A stretch of 64,000 bases of DNA, from the NCBI GenBank assembly GCA_001513155.1, contig LFSR01000042.1, forward strand, positions 16,961 to 80,960, in the 5' to 3' direction. Below, piece by piece: positions 3,647 through 28,527 of this stretch. The notes below the pieces were generated by a model. That model was not told the origin of the DNA. It searched no databases and worked only from the letters and a program-made list of their open reading frames with translations. The number at the start of each line of letters is the position of its first letter. Position 1 is the first letter of the stretch. Origin of the DNA: Syntrophomonas sp. DTU018 (GTDB taxonomy: Bacteria > Bacillota > Syntrophomonadia > Syntrophomonadales > Syntrophomonadaceae). Made by a program: the position numbers and the translations under genes.

Positions 3647-6133
3647 CTATTCGACCCCACGATAATAATGACATTTGGTAAAACCTGAGGGACTGTAACG
3701 TGCCAGCAGATTTTTCAGGGACTCGTTTTCCTCAGGTTGATCAGCAGCAATATTGGCAAGAGCTTTACGAAAAATCCTTACCACCTGTCCTACCTGGCGG
3801 GCTGAAGACCTGCGCATTTCCAGGCGCAATGCACCAGGTGACAGGGGCACAAGTTTGGACAGATCATCCAGCATGGATAGAGTGCGGGAATTAAACACAT
3901 AAAACCGGCAGTCGGCATCCCCGGCAACCGGAAAAGCATAGCCTTTTTCATCCTGAATATAGTATTGATCCCGCAGGCACCAATGAGAACACTTATTTTT
4001 ATTCTCCAATACTTCATATAATACACAGGTTTGAGAAACCATCAATACCAGCTCTCCATATACCAGCAGTTCCACATCAGTCAGATCCGGGAATTCTCTT
4101 AGCTGGTTCAGGTTAAGCTCGGGAGAGGCGCACACTCCCCGGGCACCCCAGGACTGCAACAGGGTTAAAGCCACCGGGTTGAGGACATTCAGGCTATAAT
4201 CAGCCCAAAAGGGTATCCCCTGACTGCGGCACCAGTAAATCCCACCCAAATCCCCTGCCATCACCTGGGTACATCCGGCTTCTTGGATGAGTCTGGTGTA
4301 ATCAAAGCTGTCACCGGGCTTGCGAATGCGGGGCAGGGCTGGAATCACCTCACTGCCTCTGTGACTGGCTTCCCGGGTTATCGCCTTGATCTCTTCCGGT
4401 CGCGGGCGCCGGTGATTTCCCAATCCTTCCAGAGCCAGGTACACCCGTTCGGCGCCAGCTTCCAGTGCTTGCAGGGCTGCTTCCGTACTGTTTACCATCA
4501 CCCGCAGCTGGGGCAATTTAGTTTTATTTTTTGCTCCGGTATTTCCTTTTAAGGCGGCAGCTAAAACCTGCTGCTTTTTCGGTTCAAATTCGGCAGAGGT
4601 GATTTGCCTTTGGTGTCTTTTTACTACCAGTTGGTACAGCCGGTCCACCGCATCCCGGCGGGCTTGATTTATTTCACTGAAAGGCACTATCAAATTGCCT
4701 GTACCCTCCAGGGTCAGGCTGCGCAGTTTGAAGGGAGTATTGCCCAGCCGGCCCAGTTTATCTGCCAGGGTATCCTTATCCAGGGGCTGCTGCTGGGCTT
4801 TTTGCACCAGGCTCCTGGTGGCCGCAGCGGCTTCCTGCCCACCGGCAGTGCGGTACACTACCTGCATGGGCTCCCCTTCTTGCAGATAAACTTCTACATC
4901 AACGGGCACCTCTGGATAGCTGACACCTTCATAGCTGGCTCGAGCCGAACTGATCAGTCTCTCATCATGGGTCTTAAATACCCGGTCATGGGGGTGAACT
5001 TTCTGGTCAACCTGCAAAATTACCGTTTCCCCGGCTTCCGCCCTGGTTACGGCACGTCCCTGGATCTCCATCCTTTCCACAGTAAAGGCCGGGCCTTGTC
5101 CATGAGATACCCATATCTCTACTCCATCTCCCAGGGACAGGGGTTCCTGCAGGCGAATAGCCGTACGTGCCCTGGCATCCTGGGATATCACCCGGCCTAT
5201 ATATACTCCTCGATTATTGGGACGCTGGGTACTCAATCTCTTGGGAACCTGAGGATCCAGGTACCCCGGAGAAAAAGTACGGTTGAATACTTTGGCCATC
5301 TCCCCTTTCAAGGCTTGCGGGTCGGCGGCAGTTTTCCCTTCAGCAATTTGGTCTATAAATTGACGGTAAGAACGGGTAACAATGGCCACATACTCCGGTC
5401 TTTTCATGCGCCCCTCAATTTTAAGAGAGTGGATGCCAATCTCCTGTAATACAGGCAAGTATTCTATCAGGGCCTGGTCCGCAAGACTTAACAGGTATTT
5501 GCCGGCACTATCCTGCCGGTTGCCATTTGCTGCATAAAGGGTGTAGGGCAGGCGGCAGGGCTGGGCGCATCTGCCCCGGTTGCCGCTCCTGCCGCCTACT
5601 ATGCTGCTGAACAAGCACTGTCCGGAATAGGAATAACATAAGGCTCCATGGACAAAAATCTCCAACTCAGCGGTTACTCTGTTTCTTATGGTTCTAATCT
5701 CATCCAGGGTCAGCTCCCGGGCCAGTACCACTCTTTTTACCCCCTGCTGCTGCAGAAGGTTTACTCCCTCAGCATTGTGCACCGTCATCTGGGTGCTGGC
5801 ATGAACGGCAAGATCGGGCAGCAGTTCTCGCAGCAGGTTCAATAAACCGAGATCCTGAATGATGACGGCATCTACATCGAGATTATAAAGTTCAAAGACA
5901 TAGTCCAGGACCTCATTTAGCTCCCGGCTGTGCAATAAAGTATTGACGGTAACATAGATCTTGGCATCCCGTAAATGGGCATATTCCACGGCTTTTTTAA
6001 TCATGTCCAAAGTAAAATTATCTGCGAATTGCCGGGCACTAAAAGCCTTTCCGCCCAGATATACTGCGTCTGCACCGTTTTCCAGGGCAGCCACCAAAGC
6101 ATCCCAATTACCAGCCGGAGCTAATAGTTCCAA
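3647..6133 (-). CDS. Peptidase U32 family protein (long form with C-terminal extension)
   Basis: U32 signature EIFVHGALCYSYSGQCLFSS. Likely start is TTG at 6133 (AGGAGGT 9 nt upstream, giving M-ELLAPAGNW), with ATG 6160 as alternative. The tracked ORF start at 6220 runs into repeat unit A-U1 and is an artefact. Confidence 0.85.
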   Translation of the reverse strand: MELLAPAGNWDALVAALENGADAVYLGGKAFSARQFADNFTLDMIKKAVEYAHLRDAKIYVTVNTLLHSRELNEVLDYVFELYNLDVDAVIIQDLGLLNLLRELLPDLAVHASTQMTVHNAEGVNLLQQQGVKRVVLARELTLDEIRTIRNRVTAELEIFVHGALCYSYSGQCLFSSIVGGRSGNRGRCAQPCRLPYTLYAANGNRQDSAGKYLLSLADQALIEYLPVLQEIGIHSLKIEGRMKRPEYVAIVTRSYRQFIDQIAEGKTAADPQALKGEMAKVFNRTFSPGYLDPQVPKRLSTQRPNNRGVYIGRVISQDARARTAIRLQEPLSLGDGVEIWVSHGQGPAFTVERMEIQGRAVTRAEAGETVILQVDQKVHPHDRVFKTHDERLISSARASYEGVSYPEVPVDVEVYLQEGEPMQVVYRTAGGQEAAAATRSLVQKAQQQPLDKDTLADKLGRLGNTPFKLRSLTLEGTGNLIVPFSEINQARRDAVDRLYQLVVKRHQRQITSAEFEPKKQQVLAAALKGNTGAKNKTKLPQLRVMVNSTEAALQALEAGAERVYLALEGLGNHRRPRPEEIKAITREASHRGSEVIPALPRIRKPGDSFDYTRLIQEAGCTQVMAGDLGGIYWCRSQGIPFWADYSLNVLNPVALTLLQSWGARGVCASPELNLNQLREFPDLTDVELLVYGELVLMVSQTCVLYEVLENKNKCSHWCLRDQYYIQDEKGYAFPVAGDADCRFYVFNSRTLSMLDDLSKLVPLSPGALRLEMRRSSARQVGQVVRIFRKALANIAADQPEENESLKNLLARYSPSGFTKCHYYRGVE

Positions 6134-6160
6134 GGTATGCTGACCTCCTGTGTTAAACAT

Positions 6161-6452
6161 GGTTGCTGTGAAAGCTGTGAATAAGAGATTGCCACGCCCC
6201 GTCGGGGCTCGCAATGACAATTAAGAATTCCTTTCATAGCGATGACAGGCTTAAGTTTTCGTTTATCGTGGCCTGTTATTCAGGTGACAATTGCGAGCGC
6301 AGCGAAGCAATCTCTAACGATGCCTGCAAATATGTGAACGAGATCGCCACGGCACTATGTGCCTCGCGATGACACATAAGAAAGCTTCTCTGCGATGCCA
6401 CGGCACTTCGTGCCTCGCGATGACACAAAAGGACGCCATTTTCACAGCAATA
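6161..6452. repeat. Repeat cluster A: four ~35-bp core units of the GAGATYGCCACG...CTCGCRATGACA family plus accessory modules
   Basis: Units at 6185-6219 (+), 6283-6315 (-), 6340-6374 (+) and 6391-6424 (+). Outer inverted TTGCTGTGAAA modules lie at about 6163-6173 and 6439-6449. 6239-6277 is the exact reverse complement of 28295-28333. Confidence 0.9.
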
Positions 6453-6471
6453 ACAGGTGATTTAACAGTGA

Positions 6472-6497
6472 CAAGGACGGGATTTCGACCCGTCCTG
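6472..6497 (-). terminator. Hairpin downstream of the NIF3-like gene
   Basis: AGGACGGG-ATTTCGA-CCCGTCCT 27 bp after the stop; no clear T-run. Confidence 0.35.
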
Positions 6498-6523
6498 GCA
6501 GTATCCTGGTTATATTATAGCCA

Positions 6524-7492
6524 TTAATGCAGTTCATGGTCTTTGACCCGGGAAACACGGATCAAGCCAGAACAGGGTATGATGCTGATTCCTCGTTTCT
6601 CCAATTCATCCAAAAACAGATTCATTCCCAGGGAGTCACTGGCCATATGACCGGCGACAATTACATTTAAGTGGTGCTCTTTGGCCAAGCTGCGGTGCTT
6701 ATCTGGCATATGCATGCAGATAAACGTCCCCACTCCTGCCTGGGCCAGTTTTTCGTAAGCTTTTTCCGATCCGGCTGTTCCACCGGTCATTTTGATGAAA
6801 ACCCTTCCCGCCCGGCGTTTGCGGTTACCGACTATGATTTTGGGTCCCGCTTTCAGCATTTGCGCCTGCCGGTACTCGGGAACTTCCAACAGCACCTGGA
6901 TTAAATCATCCAAAGTAGAATAACTTGCTTCTTTGAGAAGATTTTCCAAGTAGTGCTGCACCAGGTTATCAGCGGGAGAATGAACACACATGAAAGGAAT
7001 ATCCAACAGCCGGGCAGCATCTACCGCCCTTTGGTGGTTCATAGGCATATAGCGGCGTTCTACCTCGCCGATCCGGGTAGTCATTATTCCCTCGCCTACA
7101 TTTATGGGGACACCGGCTTTCTCCAGCATGTCCGCCTGGACCCCCATGACTTCATATAAGCCAGCTGCGGCGATACCCTCCGGGTGATGGGCCAGCACCA
7201 GATCAATGTTATGTCCCTTTTGCCTGAGACGGTCGGCCAAAAGGATTTCCGGTGTTTCCATATCAATTCCGCATAATATGGTCCTAACTTCGGCGTCTGG
7301 ATCTCCCACAAGAATGCGTGTATCGCTGAAGGGGTGCTCTAATTTCTGAACATCAAAAAACTCCTTCTCGTCTTCACTCATCCGCTCATACTTTTCTAAC
7401 TCATCTCTCAGTAATCTCTCCAGCTCATCTCCCCTGATATCATAACGCTTGCCTAAATCTACCGCCAGTTGGTATATCTCTCCCAGTTTCAT
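6524..7492 (-). CDS. NIF3-like (DUF34) dinuclear metal centre protein
   Basis: LVLAHHPEG and AGHMASD motifs and overall length fit NIF3/YqfO-like proteins. Family recognised by eye only. Confidence 0.5.
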   Translation of the reverse strand: MKLGEIYQLAVDLGKRYDIRGDELERLLRDELEKYERMSEDEKEFFDVQKLEHPFSDTRILVGDPDAEVRTILCGIDMETPEILLADRLRQKGHNIDLVLAHHPEGIAAAGLYEVMGVQADMLEKAGVPINVGEGIMTTRIGEVERRYMPMNHQRAVDAARLLDIPFMCVHSPADNLVQHYLENLLKEASYSTLDDLIQVLLEVPEYRQAQMLKAGPKIIVGNRKRRAGRVFIKMTGGTAGSEKAYEKLAQAGVGTFICMHMPDKHRSLAKEHHLNVIVAGHMASDSLGMNLFLDELEKRGISIIPCSGLIRVSRVKDHELH

Positions 7493-28214: not shown

Positions 28215-28527
28215 CAGACTGTAAAAGAAGTCTGTTAGCGGTTCGACGTTCGAGATTGCCACGCCCCTCCGGGGCTCGCAATTGTCACCAGTAGAACAGG
28301 CCACGATAAACGAAAACTTAAGCCTGTCATCGCGAGGAGCGAAGCGACGTGGCGATCTGTTAACTCACACCGTTAGTTGCCATAGAGATTGCCACGCGCT
28401 ACGCGCTCGCAATGACACAATTGGGAGCTATTTTCACAGCAATGACACATAAGATGGCCTTTTGGTATGTCATCGCGAGGAGCGCAGCGACGTGGCGATC
28501 TCTTTTAGCAACTTTTTTGACACTCTC
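28215..28527 (+). mobile_element. 313-bp ORF-less element (expanded copy) flanked by a 20-bp duplicated hairpin
   Basis: Termini are CAGACTGTAAAAGAAGTCT ... TTTTTTGACACTCTC. Core units lie at 28252-28288 (+), 28325-28358 (-), 28385-28417 (+) and 28468-28502 (-). Flanking direct repeats AGGCTGCCTTGCGGCAGCCC occur at 28195-28214 and 28528-28547. Confidence 0.85.

What the first reader, a model, noticed from the sequence alone, without database searches (positions are those of the whole stretch)
6161..6452. Composite repeat nest upstream of the U32 peptidase gene, sharing a 39-bp module with locus 28.3 kb in inverted orientation and lacking a hairpin duplication
Four core units (three forward, one reverse) plus accessory modules fill most of the 390-bp gap between the NIF3-like stop and the U32 start. 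6239-6277 is the exact reverse complement of 28295-28333, and the same CTCGCAATTGTCACC junction is used at both loci. The cluster is bounded by inverted TTGCTGTGAAA modules instead of the CAGACTGT/CACTCTC termini. The nearby hairpin at 6472-6497 is present once only. This implies at least two sub-families or modular shuffling by recombination. The first unit also creates a false 29-codon N-terminal extension of the U32 ORF.
Basis: seen in the sequence. Interest (0 to 1): 0.6.

Follow-up and report, generated by a model that had tools for sequence, protein, structure and literature searches.

The report
Nested hairpin-homing mini-elements upstream of U32
The 300-bp repeat cluster is a pile-up of decayed copies of a small gene-less mobile element that lands right after the letters GCAAT at the foot of a widespread DNA hairpin, so it is a worn member of a real but undescribed repeat family, not a special structure.

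Summary
It covers four core hairpins, the exact 39-nt inverted match to 28.3 kb, the shared CTCGCAATTGTCACC junction, the inverted TTGCTGTGAAA ends, the single terminator hairpin and the false 29-codon extension.

The nest is not a locus-specific rearrangement. It is built from a genus-specific family of 160-190-nt gene-less elements, which I call X-RE elements (about 110 copies). Each runs from a left end T[G/A]TCACC through the 39-nt "X" module and two inverted core hairpins to a right end TTTTCACAGCAAT.

They sit directly 3' of GCAAT, mostly at GCAAT^GACA of a core hairpin. They have no inverted termini and no target duplication. Of 66 complete copies, 36 have uninterrupted paralogous sites, and one has an orthologous empty site in the sister species.

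The 6-kb nest contains:
- a young copy of subfamily 2B on the minus strand, carrying a 63-nt deletion;
- an older 5'-truncated copy on the plus strand, into which the 2B copy inserted;
- an 11-nt left-end remnant.

TTGCTGTGAAA is the family's right end, seen here in both orientations. The family is distinct from the hairpin-duplicating 152-bp element. The mover is unidentified. I infer single-strand HUH-type transposition, as in IS200/IS605 or RAYT systems, but this is unproven. The core hairpin itself occurs across many phyla.

The parts
6131..6133 (-). True start codon (TTG) of the U32 peptidase gene. GGAGG lies at 6149-6145.
   Evidence: M-E-L-L-A-P-A-G-N-W follows a TTG with GGAGG 10-11 nt upstream, and this is conserved in G001-G004. 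The ATG at 6160 and the TTG at 6220 are not conserved.
6162..6289 (-). E3: an X-RE element of subfamily 2B, 128 nt, with a 63-nt internal deletion. Left end TGTCACC = 6289-6283. X module = 6277-6239. Core hairpin = 6219-6185 (read on +). Right end TTTCACAGCAAC = 6173-6162.
   Evidence: Its first 104 nt are 100% identical to the consensus of 10 full-length 191-nt 2B copies, followed by a deletion that removes the third hairpin unit. It is preceded on the minus strand by GCAAT (6294-6290).
6239..6277 (-). The 39-nt 'X' module (AACAGGCC ACGATAAACGAAAACTTAA GCCTGT CATCGC) shared with 28295-28333.
   Evidence: Exact reverse complement. There are 42 copies genome-wide, always just inside a T[G/A]TCACC left end that follows GCAAT.
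6290..6451 (+). E2: an older X-RE copy of the 160-nt subtype, lacking its first 49 nt (left end plus X' module). Core 6290-6314, linker 6315-6339, core 6340-6374, extra core 6391-6425, right end TTTTCACAGCAAT 6439-6451.
   Evidence: It aligns to positions 50-160 of the complete 160-nt copy at C39:5285, with one extra 51-nt unit (36/51 identical to its neighbour). The same core-linker-core arrangement recurs at 15 other loci.
6452..6462 (-). E1: remnant of a minus-strand left end (AATCACCTGTT).
   Evidence: It matches the left-end consensus T[G/A]TCACCTG with one mismatch. At the same boundary, G001 keeps a complete left end plus X' module after GTAAT.
6475..6495 (-). Terminator-like hairpin of the NIF3-like gene, present once and not part of the repeat family.
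   Evidence: It is unique in the genome and is present in the repeat-free spacer of G002. It is predicted as a stable stem in the fold of the spacer.
6524..7492 (-). NIF3-like gene (322 aa) upstream of the nest.
   Evidence: ORF list. Orthologues at 80-89% identity occur in four congeners.
28283..28443 (+). Sister copy: an X-RE element of subfamily 2A (161 nt), inserted at GCAAT^GACA of the forward core of a 152-bp hairpin-duplicating element.
   Evidence: The flanks join to ...ccggggctcgcaat|gacacataagatgg, which occurs uninterrupted 41 times in the genome. There are 16 copies of 2A at 94.6% mean identity.

Best explanation
**What it is (shown).** The region is a nest of three copies or fragments of one genus-specific family of gene-less mobile elements, which I call X-RE elements. 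They are 160-190 nt long.

Each element has this order:
- an asymmetric left end, T[G/A]TCACC(TG);
- the 39-nt X hairpin module;
- two core hairpins in inverted orientation, which together fold into one long stem;
- a right end, (A)TTTTCACAGCAAT.

The elements sit immediately 3' of the pentamer GCAAT. Most often this is the GCAAT^GACA that forms the 3' foot of a core hairpin. Because they end in GCAAT themselves, they recreate the target, so they can nest and chain.

**History at this locus.**
- An element entered the short NIF3-U32 spacer after the split from G002-G004.
- A young 2B copy (E3, minus strand) later inserted into the first core of an older plus-strand copy (E2).
- Deletions then removed 63 nt of E3, the 5' 49 nt of E2 and most of a third copy (E1).
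- This leaves two right ends facing outward. They are the 'inverted TTGCTGTGAAA modules'.

**Mechanism (inferred, not shown).** I infer movement as single-stranded DNA by an HUH-type tyrosine enzyme acting in trans, in the manner of IS200/IS605 elements or of REP/RAYT systems. The only candidate found is a single-copy RAYT-like gene at C2:13399-13890.

**Effect on U32.** The nest probably does nothing more than lengthen and structure the U32 leader.
For: **Family and modules**
- There are 284 core units in 170 clusters. Repeat loci number 166 and total 43 kb.
- The 39-nt module occurs 42 times, in a constant context.
- About 110 copies carry a left end; 66 of them also have a right end within 330 nt.
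- Subfamily 2A has 16 copies at 94.6% identity, and 2B has 10 copies at 93.5%.

**Target**
- 94 of 122 left ends are preceded by GCAAT (binomial p about 1e-256).
- 31 GCAAT cores carry an insertion, against 0 of about 215 GCGAT cores (Fisher p = 3e-13).

**Discrete insertion**
- 36 of 66 complete copies have flanks that occur joined and uninterrupted elsewhere, up to 41 times.
- The 184-nt copy at C20:17452 is absent from the orthologous, otherwise collinear site in G001.

**No target duplication and no inverted termini**
- In all 18 copies where one of the two flanking pentamers deviates from GCAAT, the other does not share the change. This includes 5 copies with ACAAT or GTAAT on the left and GCAAT at the right end.

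**This locus**
- E3 is 100% identical to the 2B consensus over 104 nt, then carries a 63-nt deletion.
- E2 aligns to positions 50-160 of a complete 160-nt copy.
- The spacer is about 40-47 nt in G003 and G004 and about 110 nt in G002, without repeats.
- G001 has a different nest of about 410 nt. It has a left end next to the terminator side and a right end next to the ribosome-binding site.

**Single-strand structure**
- The 2B consensus folds at -37.5 kcal/mol, z = -4.2.
- The outer stem of the core covaries: 325 concordant versus 7 discordant.

**Link to the HUH candidate**
- The RAYT-like gene scores 65.9 bits to NF047646, E = 3e-18.
- Its own GTAG-type palindrome is the sole hairpin in minimal 94-97-nt X-RE copies.
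Against: **The mover is not identified.**
- The RAYT-like protein scores below the curated cut-off (65.9 versus 80 bits).
- The RAYT-like gene is flanked by GTAG palindromes, not by core hairpins or X-RE ends.
- It is absent from G001, which still has 71 cores and 43 right ends.
- No X-RE unit in this genome encloses a transposase gene.

**The expected strand bias is missing.** Lagging-strand single-strand transposition should give an orientation bias. The observed bias is weak: 65:45, p = 0.07.

**The pentamer test has limits.** It cannot separate an HUH mechanism from a site-specific recombinase that uses a 5-nt crossover core.

**The history at this locus is a reconstruction.**
- The flush loss of E2's 5' part at E3's right end is not explained in detail.
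- Whether the G000 and G001 nests descend from one insertion cannot be decided, because the flanks have diverged.

Confidence: 0.6

Rival explanations
1. The nest is a BIME-like mosaic. Core hairpins are REP-type units that cluster in alternating orientation with stock linkers. The arrays grow and shrink by replication slippage, gene conversion and recombination between units, not by transposition of a defined 160-190-nt element.
For: Cores are extragenic: only 36 of 284 lie in open frames of at least 150 aa. They are abundant and mostly paired in inverted orientation (49 '+-' and 20 '-+' clusters). A limited set of linkers recurs. The nest itself shows deletions and a tandem 51-nt unit. A 7-unit tandem array sits at C8:1-754.
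Against: The LE...RE units have base-precise boundaries in several unrelated host contexts. They have 36 paralogous empty sites and one orthologous empty site in unique coding-end DNA. They also discriminate strictly between GCAAT and GCGAT. Slippage or conversion does not predict any of these.
Confidence: 0.15
2. X-RE elements are moved by a site-specific recombinase or an IS110-type (DEDD) enzyme that recombines a 5-nt crossover core, GCAAT, shared by donor junction and target. They are not moved by an HUH single-strand transposase.
For: An identical pentamer lies on both sides of 48 of 66 copies. Head-to-tail RE|LE junctions exist in the genome (C34 copies). IS110-family elements are known to lack inverted termini and to target repeated palindromes (my knowledge, and the background of PMC3733652). 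The genome holds an IS110-family transposase at two contig ends: C25:45415-45897 (108 bits) and C34:130352.
Against: The DNA upstream and downstream of the IS110 gene shows no T[G/A]TCACC, X module or TTTTCACAGCAAT. No bridge-RNA-like partner was tested. The elements are rich in single-strand hairpins next to both ends, which suits HUH enzymes.
Confidence: 0.12
3. X-RE elements are ordinary cut-and-paste MITEs of a DDE transposase that makes a 5-bp target-site duplication at a strongly preferred GCAAT target.
For: GCAAT lies on both sides of most copies. The size range is that of MITEs.
Against: The two ends have no inverted repeats (T[G/A]TCACCTG versus ATTGCTGTGAAA read inward). None of the 18 variant pentamers is shared between the two sides. 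No IS1182-family gene was found, and no other multi-copy DDE partner with these ends was seen.
Confidence: 0.06
4. The nest is a selected cis-regulatory RNA structure for the U32 gene, such as a processing, stabilising or attenuating leader, rather than selfish DNA debris.
For: The 390-nt spacer folds well as a single strand (-67.3 kcal/mol, z = -4.3). It lies between a terminator hairpin and the ribosome-binding site. REP and BIME elements are reported to affect mRNA stability and termination (PMC2817692 and PMC3733652 abstracts).
Against: It is absent from three of four congeners, which have 40-110-nt spacers. Its content differs in G001. It is made of decayed copies with deletions. No Rfam family matches. 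No sigma-70-like promoter lies on the minus strand.
Confidence: 0.05

Closest known systems
REP / BIME / REPIN elements with RAYT (REP-associated tyrosine transposases): Nunvar 2010 (PMC2817692); Bertels & Rainey 2011 (PMC3116915); Di Nocera 2013 (PMC3733652)
   Same: - Imperfect palindromes about 35 nt long.
- Hundreds of extragenic copies.
- Pairs in inverted orientation that fold into one long hairpin, as REPINs do.
- Mosaic clusters with stock linkers, as in BIMEs.
- A single-copy RAYT-like gene in the genome.
- Expansion that differs strongly between congeners.
   Different: - The core carries neither the GTAG nor the CGTC tag.
- The RAYT-like gene is flanked by a different, GTAG-type palindrome.
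- The mobile unit has extra asymmetric ends (T[G/A]TCACC plus the X module, and TTTTCACAGCAAT) and a defined pentamer target. Neither feature is described for REPINs.
- The core hairpin is shared across phyla, whereas REPs are usually lineage-specific.
IS200/IS605-family insertion sequences and their gene-less derivatives (PATEs), moved by the Y1 HUH transposase TnpA (background in PMC6006769)
   Same: - No terminal inverted repeats and no target duplication.
- Insertion immediately 3' of a fixed 4-5-nt sequence.
- Hairpins close to both ends.
- Strong single-strand folding.
   Different: - No autonomous partner with the same ends was found.
- The right end repeats the target pentamer itself.
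- There is no clear replication-strand bias.
- The preferred target is the foot of another repeat.
The 152-bp CAGACTGT...CACTCTC element of the same genome, which duplicates whole terminator hairpins. Earlier agents read it as an IS1182-type MITE.
   Same: It contains two of the same core hairpins in inverted orientation. It is the host of the 28-kb sister copy of the 39-nt module.
   Different: It has different termini, a different target (a terminator hairpin) and a different footprint (a 17-35-bp hairpin duplication). The 6-kb nest has none of these features. No IS1182-family transposase is detectable in this assembly.

Membership tests
REP/BIME (REPIN-RAYT system) | Short (20-40 nt) imperfect palindrome in more than 100 extragenic copies | tested here: met
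   There are 284 units of 33-37 nt. Only 36 fall in open frames of at least 150 aa. The outer stem covaries 325:7.
REP/BIME (REPIN-RAYT system) | Clusters of units in alternating orientation with recurrent linkers | tested here: met
   There are 49 '+-' and 20 '-+' pairs, plus longer arrays. Linkers recur.
REP/BIME (REPIN-RAYT system) | GTAG (or CGTC) tag at one end of the palindrome | tested here: not met
   Core ends are GAGATYGCCAC and CTCGCRATGACA. A separate GTAG-tagged palindrome of about 35 copies exists, but it is not the core.
REP/BIME (REPIN-RAYT system) | Cognate RAYT gene flanked by the same palindromes (REPtron) | tested here: not met
   The RAYT-like gene at C2:13399-13890 and its G003 orthologue are flanked by GTAG palindromes, not by cores or X-RE ends. 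The gene is absent in G001.
IS200/IS605-type non-autonomous elements | No terminal inverted repeats and no target-site duplication | tested here: met
   The ends are unlike each other. None of 18 variant pentamers is shared between the two sides. The orthologous empty site shows no duplicated bases beyond a possible shared AAT.
IS200/IS605-type non-autonomous elements | Insertion 3' of a fixed short target sequence | tested here: met
   GCAAT precedes 94 of 122 left ends. GCGAT cores are never hit.
IS200/IS605-type non-autonomous elements | Autonomous relative with the same ends that encodes TnpA (Y1 HUH) | tested here: not met
   The only Y1-like gene is the RAYT-like one, which lacks X-RE ends. 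No coding LE...RE unit exists.
IS200/IS605-type non-autonomous elements | Orientation bias relative to replication (lagging-strand template) | tested here: inconclusive
   65 copies have the top strand on the C-rich strand and 45 on the G-rich strand, p = 0.07. The assembly is a draft, so replication direction was inferred from local GC skew only.
IS200/IS605-type non-autonomous elements | Single-stranded circular intermediate with an RE-LE junction | not testable with these tools
   This needs mobilome sequencing or PCR.
Hairpin-duplicating 152-bp element (IS1182-type MITE, per earlier agents) | CAGACTGT...CACTCTC termini and duplication of a whole target hairpin | tested here: not met
   The nest has neither terminus. 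The hairpin at 6475-6495 is unique in the genome. In contrast, nearly all of the 32 full-length 152-bp copies show duplications, exact over 17-35 bp in about half.

The most novel reading that the evidence does not exclude
X-RE elements may be a previously undescribed kind of gene-less mobile DNA. On this reading they home to the 3' foot (GCAAT^GACA) of a hairpin of about 33 nt whose sequence, GTCATYGCGAG-[mini hairpin]-CGNNGCRATC, is shared almost unchanged by bacteria of many phyla.

They are built from that same hairpin, and they recreate the target at their own right end, so they can nest and chain. The enzyme would act in trans. It would be either the single-copy RAYT-like protein or an unrecognised, widely conserved activity that handles hairpins in single-stranded nucleic acid. 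Such an activity would also explain why the hairpin persists across phyla without any linked gene.
Probability: 0.25. Interest if true: 0.75.

Novelty: new variant of a known kind. Interest (0 to 1): 0.5.

Why it matters
The nest itself is genomic debris and is unlikely to matter for the U32 gene. Working it out gives three useful results:
- It separates two mobile families that share building blocks in one genome.
- It defines the ends, target and footprint of one of them at base resolution, with empty sites.
- It shows that the building block is a hairpin found across bacterial phyla. No Rfam family matched, and the searchable literature returned nothing for its sequence.

This makes a concrete biochemical question testable: which enzyme recognises the GCAAT foot of this hairpin?

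It also gives annotators a rule for removing spurious ORFs and N-terminal extensions that these repeats create. Examples are the 29-codon extension here, and the '...LAMT', 'CEERSDEAI' and 'ARNDG' peptides seen in other phyla.

Tried and rejected
- **Rfam.** A permissive scan of 5900-6800 and a gathering-threshold scan of the whole window gave nothing for the repeats. The only hits were a T-box and a tRNA elsewhere.
- **Literature.** Searches for the core sequence and for the junk peptides it encodes returned only unrelated primer matches or nothing.
- **IS1182-family transposase (NF033551).** No match in the genome.
- **Y2/IS91 (PF04986).** No match, but the control genomes were also silent, so this is uninformative.
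- **IS110-family gene.** Found at two contig ends, but its flanks show no X-RE features.
- **Conserved neighbouring gene.** I looked around the core hairpin in 120 loci from other phyla. Only spurious ORFs that translate the hairpin clustered together.
- **Gene cassettes between inverted cores or between LE and RE in this genome.** Only housekeeping genes were found: SmpB, HtrA-like, UvrC and a radical-SAM protein.
- **Strand bias.** Not significant.
- **Promoter and terminator scan of the spacer.** One plus-strand promoter-like match, at the chance level; nothing on the minus strand.
- **A fuzzy-regex search for empty sites.** It timed out and was replaced by BLAST.
- **A first alignment of the orthologous empty site.** It used the wrong locus coordinates and was redone by reading the locus directly.
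- **Rejected reading: the inverted TTGCTGTGAAA pair as terminal inverted repeats of one element.** The motif is the right end of asymmetric units, and only 4 of 166 arrays have it at both ends.

Full report
**1. Observation**

All the stated features are present.
- 6239-6277 is the exact reverse complement of 28295-28333. CTCGCAATTGTCACC occurs at 28275 (+) and 6283 (-). TTGCTGTGAAA occurs at 6163 (+) and reverse-complemented at 6440 and 28432.
- Core units lie at 6185-6219, 6340-6374 and 6391-6425 (forward) and at 6290-6314 (reverse, a shorter variant).
- The hairpin at 6475-6495 is unique in the genome.
- The minus-strand open frame 3647-6220 begins at a TTG formed by the edge of unit 1.
- The real U32 start is TTG 6133-6131 (MELLAPAGNW), with GGAGG at 6149-6145. 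This start is conserved in four congeners. The 29-codon extension is therefore false and the gap to the NIF3 stop (6524-6526) is 390 bp.

**2. The repeat family in the genome**

The window is C21:16961-80960 of a 2.56-Mb, 59-contig assembly with 48% G+C.
- A loose pattern for the core, GAGATYGCCAC-N8-18-CTCGYRATGACA, finds 284 units in 170 clusters. Most are inverted pairs.
- Repeat-rich loci that contain a core number 166 and cover 43 kb, or 1.7% of the genome.
- A 14-mer recurrence map of 6120-6540 shows that almost every junction between 6184 and 6313, and between 6391 and 6451, recurs elsewhere.

That criterion is not met: this is a modular family.

**3. Two different mobile families share the core hairpin**

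*(a) The 152-bp element.* The CAGACTGT...CACTCTC element has 32 full-length copies at 72-100% identity. Nearly all are flanked by a duplication of a whole terminator-like hairpin, exact over 17-35 bp in about half of them. Earlier agents read it as an IS1182-type MITE. I confirmed the duplication but found no IS1182-family gene in this assembly. The one paper I read on that family, on IS1272/TnSha1 (PMC4923244), reports hairpin targeting with partial deletion, not duplication.

*(b) The family relevant here, which I call X-RE.* All 42 copies of the 39-nt module lie just inside a T[G/A]TCACC end that directly follows GCAAT. Reading on, the unit continues with:
- a core in reverse orientation;
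- a linker;
- a core in forward orientation;
- 8-10 nt;
- ATTTTCACAGCAAT, usually followed by GACA.

About 110 copies carry the left end, and 66 of them have a right end within 330 nt. The modal lengths are 160-165 and 180-195 nt. Subfamily 2A (161 nt, 16 copies) averages 94.6% identity. Subfamily 2B (191 nt, 10 copies) averages 93.5%. A third, heterogeneous group has a variant X' module.

As single-stranded DNA the 2B consensus folds at -37.5 kcal/mol (z = -4.2). The two inverted cores form one long stem, as in a REPIN.

**4. Evidence that X-RE units are discrete, site-specific insertions**

- GCAAT precedes 94 of 122 left ends (p about 1e-256).
- 31 GCAAT cores are followed by a left end, against none of about 215 GCGAT cores (p = 3e-13).
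- For 36 of 66 complete copies, the 25 nt on each side occur joined and uninterrupted elsewhere in the genome, up to 41 times. Hosts include the forward core of the 152-bp element (8 insertions, one being the 28-kb locus) and the short TTCGCTGCG core followed by an X' module.
- Some copies lie in unique DNA. The 184-nt copy at C20:17452 sits four codons before a stop codon (...gctgctcacaat|element|gaggaggaatgattATG). The orthologous G001 site reads ...gctgcccatagcgaggaggaatgataATG without it.
- The two flanking pentamers are not a target duplication. In all 18 copies where one deviates from GCAAT, the other does not share the change.
- The ends are not inverted repeats of each other.
- Right ends serve as targets too, since head-to-tail RE|LE junctions exist (for example at C34).

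**5. Anatomy of the 6-kb nest**

- **E3.** On the minus strand, GCAAT (6294-6290) is followed by a 2B copy, E3 (6289-6162). Its first 104 nt are identical to the 2B consensus. A 63-nt deletion then removes the third hairpin unit, and the copy ends TTTCACAGCAAC.
- **E2.** E3 interrupts the first core of a plus-strand copy, E2 (6290-6451). E2 aligns to positions 50-160 of a complete 160-nt copy (C39:5285) and carries one extra 51-nt core (36/51 identical to its neighbour). The 49 nt that should precede E2 are missing, so E3's right end abuts unique DNA 12 nt from the ribosome-binding site.
- **E1.** Beyond E2's right end lies AATCACCTGTT (6462-6452 on the minus strand), a remnant of a minus-strand left end.

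The inverted TTGCTGTGAAA pair is therefore two right ends from oppositely oriented copies. Genome-wide, 45 array ends are of this type, but only 4 arrays have it at both ends.

The 39-nt identity with the 28-kb locus reflects recent copies of sister subfamilies 2B and 2A. These share their first 51 nt apart from five bases.

**6. History from relatives**

- The core pattern is confined to the genus: 246, 71, 8, 6 and 2 exact matches in G000-G004. There are none in 35 other genomes of the family and order, apart from one match in G040. The right-end motif shows the same gradient: 124, 43, 16, 9 and 3.
- The NIF3-U32 spacer is about 40 nt in G003, about 47 nt in G004 and about 110 nt in G002. 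G002 has the terminator hairpin, and none of the three has repeats.
- G001 is the closest relative (89% NIF3 identity) and has a 511-nt spacer holding a different nest. On the minus strand, a complete left end follows GTAAT next to the terminator, and a right end (CATGTTCACAGCAAT) lies next to the ribosome-binding site. The interior includes an unrelated MITE with CAGGAGTATTAGCCGG termini.
- The spacer was therefore invaded after the split from G002-G004 and remodelled independently afterwards. E3 is specific to G000. Whether the G000 and G001 nests share one founding insertion cannot be settled, because the flanks have diverged.

**7. The core hairpin beyond this genus**

The loci came from Alpha- and Gammaproteobacteria, Chloroflexota, Bacteroidota, Cyanobacteria, Patescibacteria, Clostridia, Planctomycetota, Nitrospirota and others.
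- Chance alone would give roughly 150 matches in 596 Gb (my estimate). These hits are not chance, however. The variable centre is almost always a mini-hairpin, most often GAGCGAAGCGAC. The conserved flanks extend beyond the pattern, and several loci hold 2-5 copies.
- The Y/R pair of the outer stem covaries: 139 T-A and 12 C-G against 2 discordant in other phyla, and 121 and 204 against 7 in this genome.
- No protein family is consistently adjacent in those loci.
- Rfam has no matching family, and the searchable literature returned nothing for the sequence or its junk peptides.
- Notes from other agents of this scan describe cross-phylum mini-hairpins that may be the same object. I treat them as leads only.

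**8. Who moves the elements**

This is not shown.
- The genome has one Y1 HUH gene. It is a 163-aa RAYT-like protein at C2:13399-13890 (NF047646 65.9 bits, below the cut-off of 80; PF01797 19.6 bits).
- A GTAG-tagged palindrome, GTAGGGGNCGATGCCCACATCGNCCC (about 35 copies), flanks and overlaps this gene, both here and in G003. That palindrome is the sole hairpin in minimal 94-97-nt X-RE copies, which links the two systems loosely.
- Against the link: the gene is absent from G001 and G004 and fragmentary in G002. X-RE orientation shows only a weak bias (65:45, p = 0.07).
- An IS110-family transposase sits at two contig ends, but its flanks have no X-RE features.
- No LE...RE unit encloses a transposase.

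My preferred mechanism is single-strand, HUH-type, trans-mobilised transposition. It rests on the footprint: a fixed 3' target, no duplication, no inverted termini and hairpins near both ends. I rate the mechanism at about 45%, and the structural decomposition of the nest at about 85%.

**9. Function at this locus**

None is indicated.
- The spacer folds strongly as a single strand (z = -4.3).
- It has no minus-strand sigma-70-like promoter or additional terminator.
- Congeners do without it.
- Transcript data could not be obtained.

**10. Verdict**

The nest is a decayed, nested cluster of a real, undescribed, site-specific mini-element family that is distinct from the hairpin-duplicating element. 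In kind it lies between REP/BIME/REPIN systems and IS200/IS605-type gene-less elements. It fails one or more defining tests of each, so I class it as a new variant of a known kind, of moderate interest. The more intriguing object is the pan-bacterial core hairpin that the family is built from and targets.

Noticed in passing
genome contig C2:13399-13890 (outside the window): A single-copy RAYT-like gene (163 aa, HUH and Tyr motifs). A separate GTAG-tagged palindrome, GTAGGGGNCGATGCCCACATCGNCCC (about 35 copies), overlaps and follows it. The same arrangement occurs in G003, and the gene is absent in G001 and G004.
   Followed up: partly
loci L011-L130 (other phyla): The core hairpin GTCATYGCGAG-[mini hairpin]-CGNNGCRATC occurs in species of many bacterial phyla, with covariation of its outer stem and no consistently linked gene. 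It generates the recurrent junk peptides '...DCFVASLLAMT', 'RHCEERSDEAIQ', 'VIASEAKQS' and 'LLRFARNDG'.
   Followed up: partly
genome contig C20:17452-17635 (outside the window): A 184-nt X-RE copy is inserted four codons before the stop of a gene and just upstream of the next gene's ribosome-binding site. It replaces the C-terminal EEE with a repeat-encoded tail. G001 has the empty site.
   Followed up: yes
window about 25514 (-); G001 nest (L007:850-1075); genome C25, C8, C57 and about 55 other loci: Another abundant MITE, about 206-232 bp and roughly 55-60 copies, with terminal inverted repeats CAGGAGTATTAGCCGG...CCGGCTAATACTCCTG. It is unrelated to the core hairpin family.
   Followed up: partly
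genome contig C8:1-754 (outside the window): A tandem array of seven forward core units with a period of about 110-129 nt sits at a contig end. This differs from the usual inverted pairs.
   Followed up: no
genome contigs C25:45415-45897 and C34:130352-130453 (contig ends): An IS110-family (DEDD) transposase gene lies at two contig ends, so it is probably multi-copy. Its element ends could not be defined in this draft assembly.
   Followed up: partly
window 6152-6160 versus 6461-6470: An imperfect direct repeat flanks the nest on the minus strand: CACTGTTAAA next to the terminator and CATGTTTAAC next to the ribosome-binding site. It could be chance or the trace of an older insertion.
   Followed up: no
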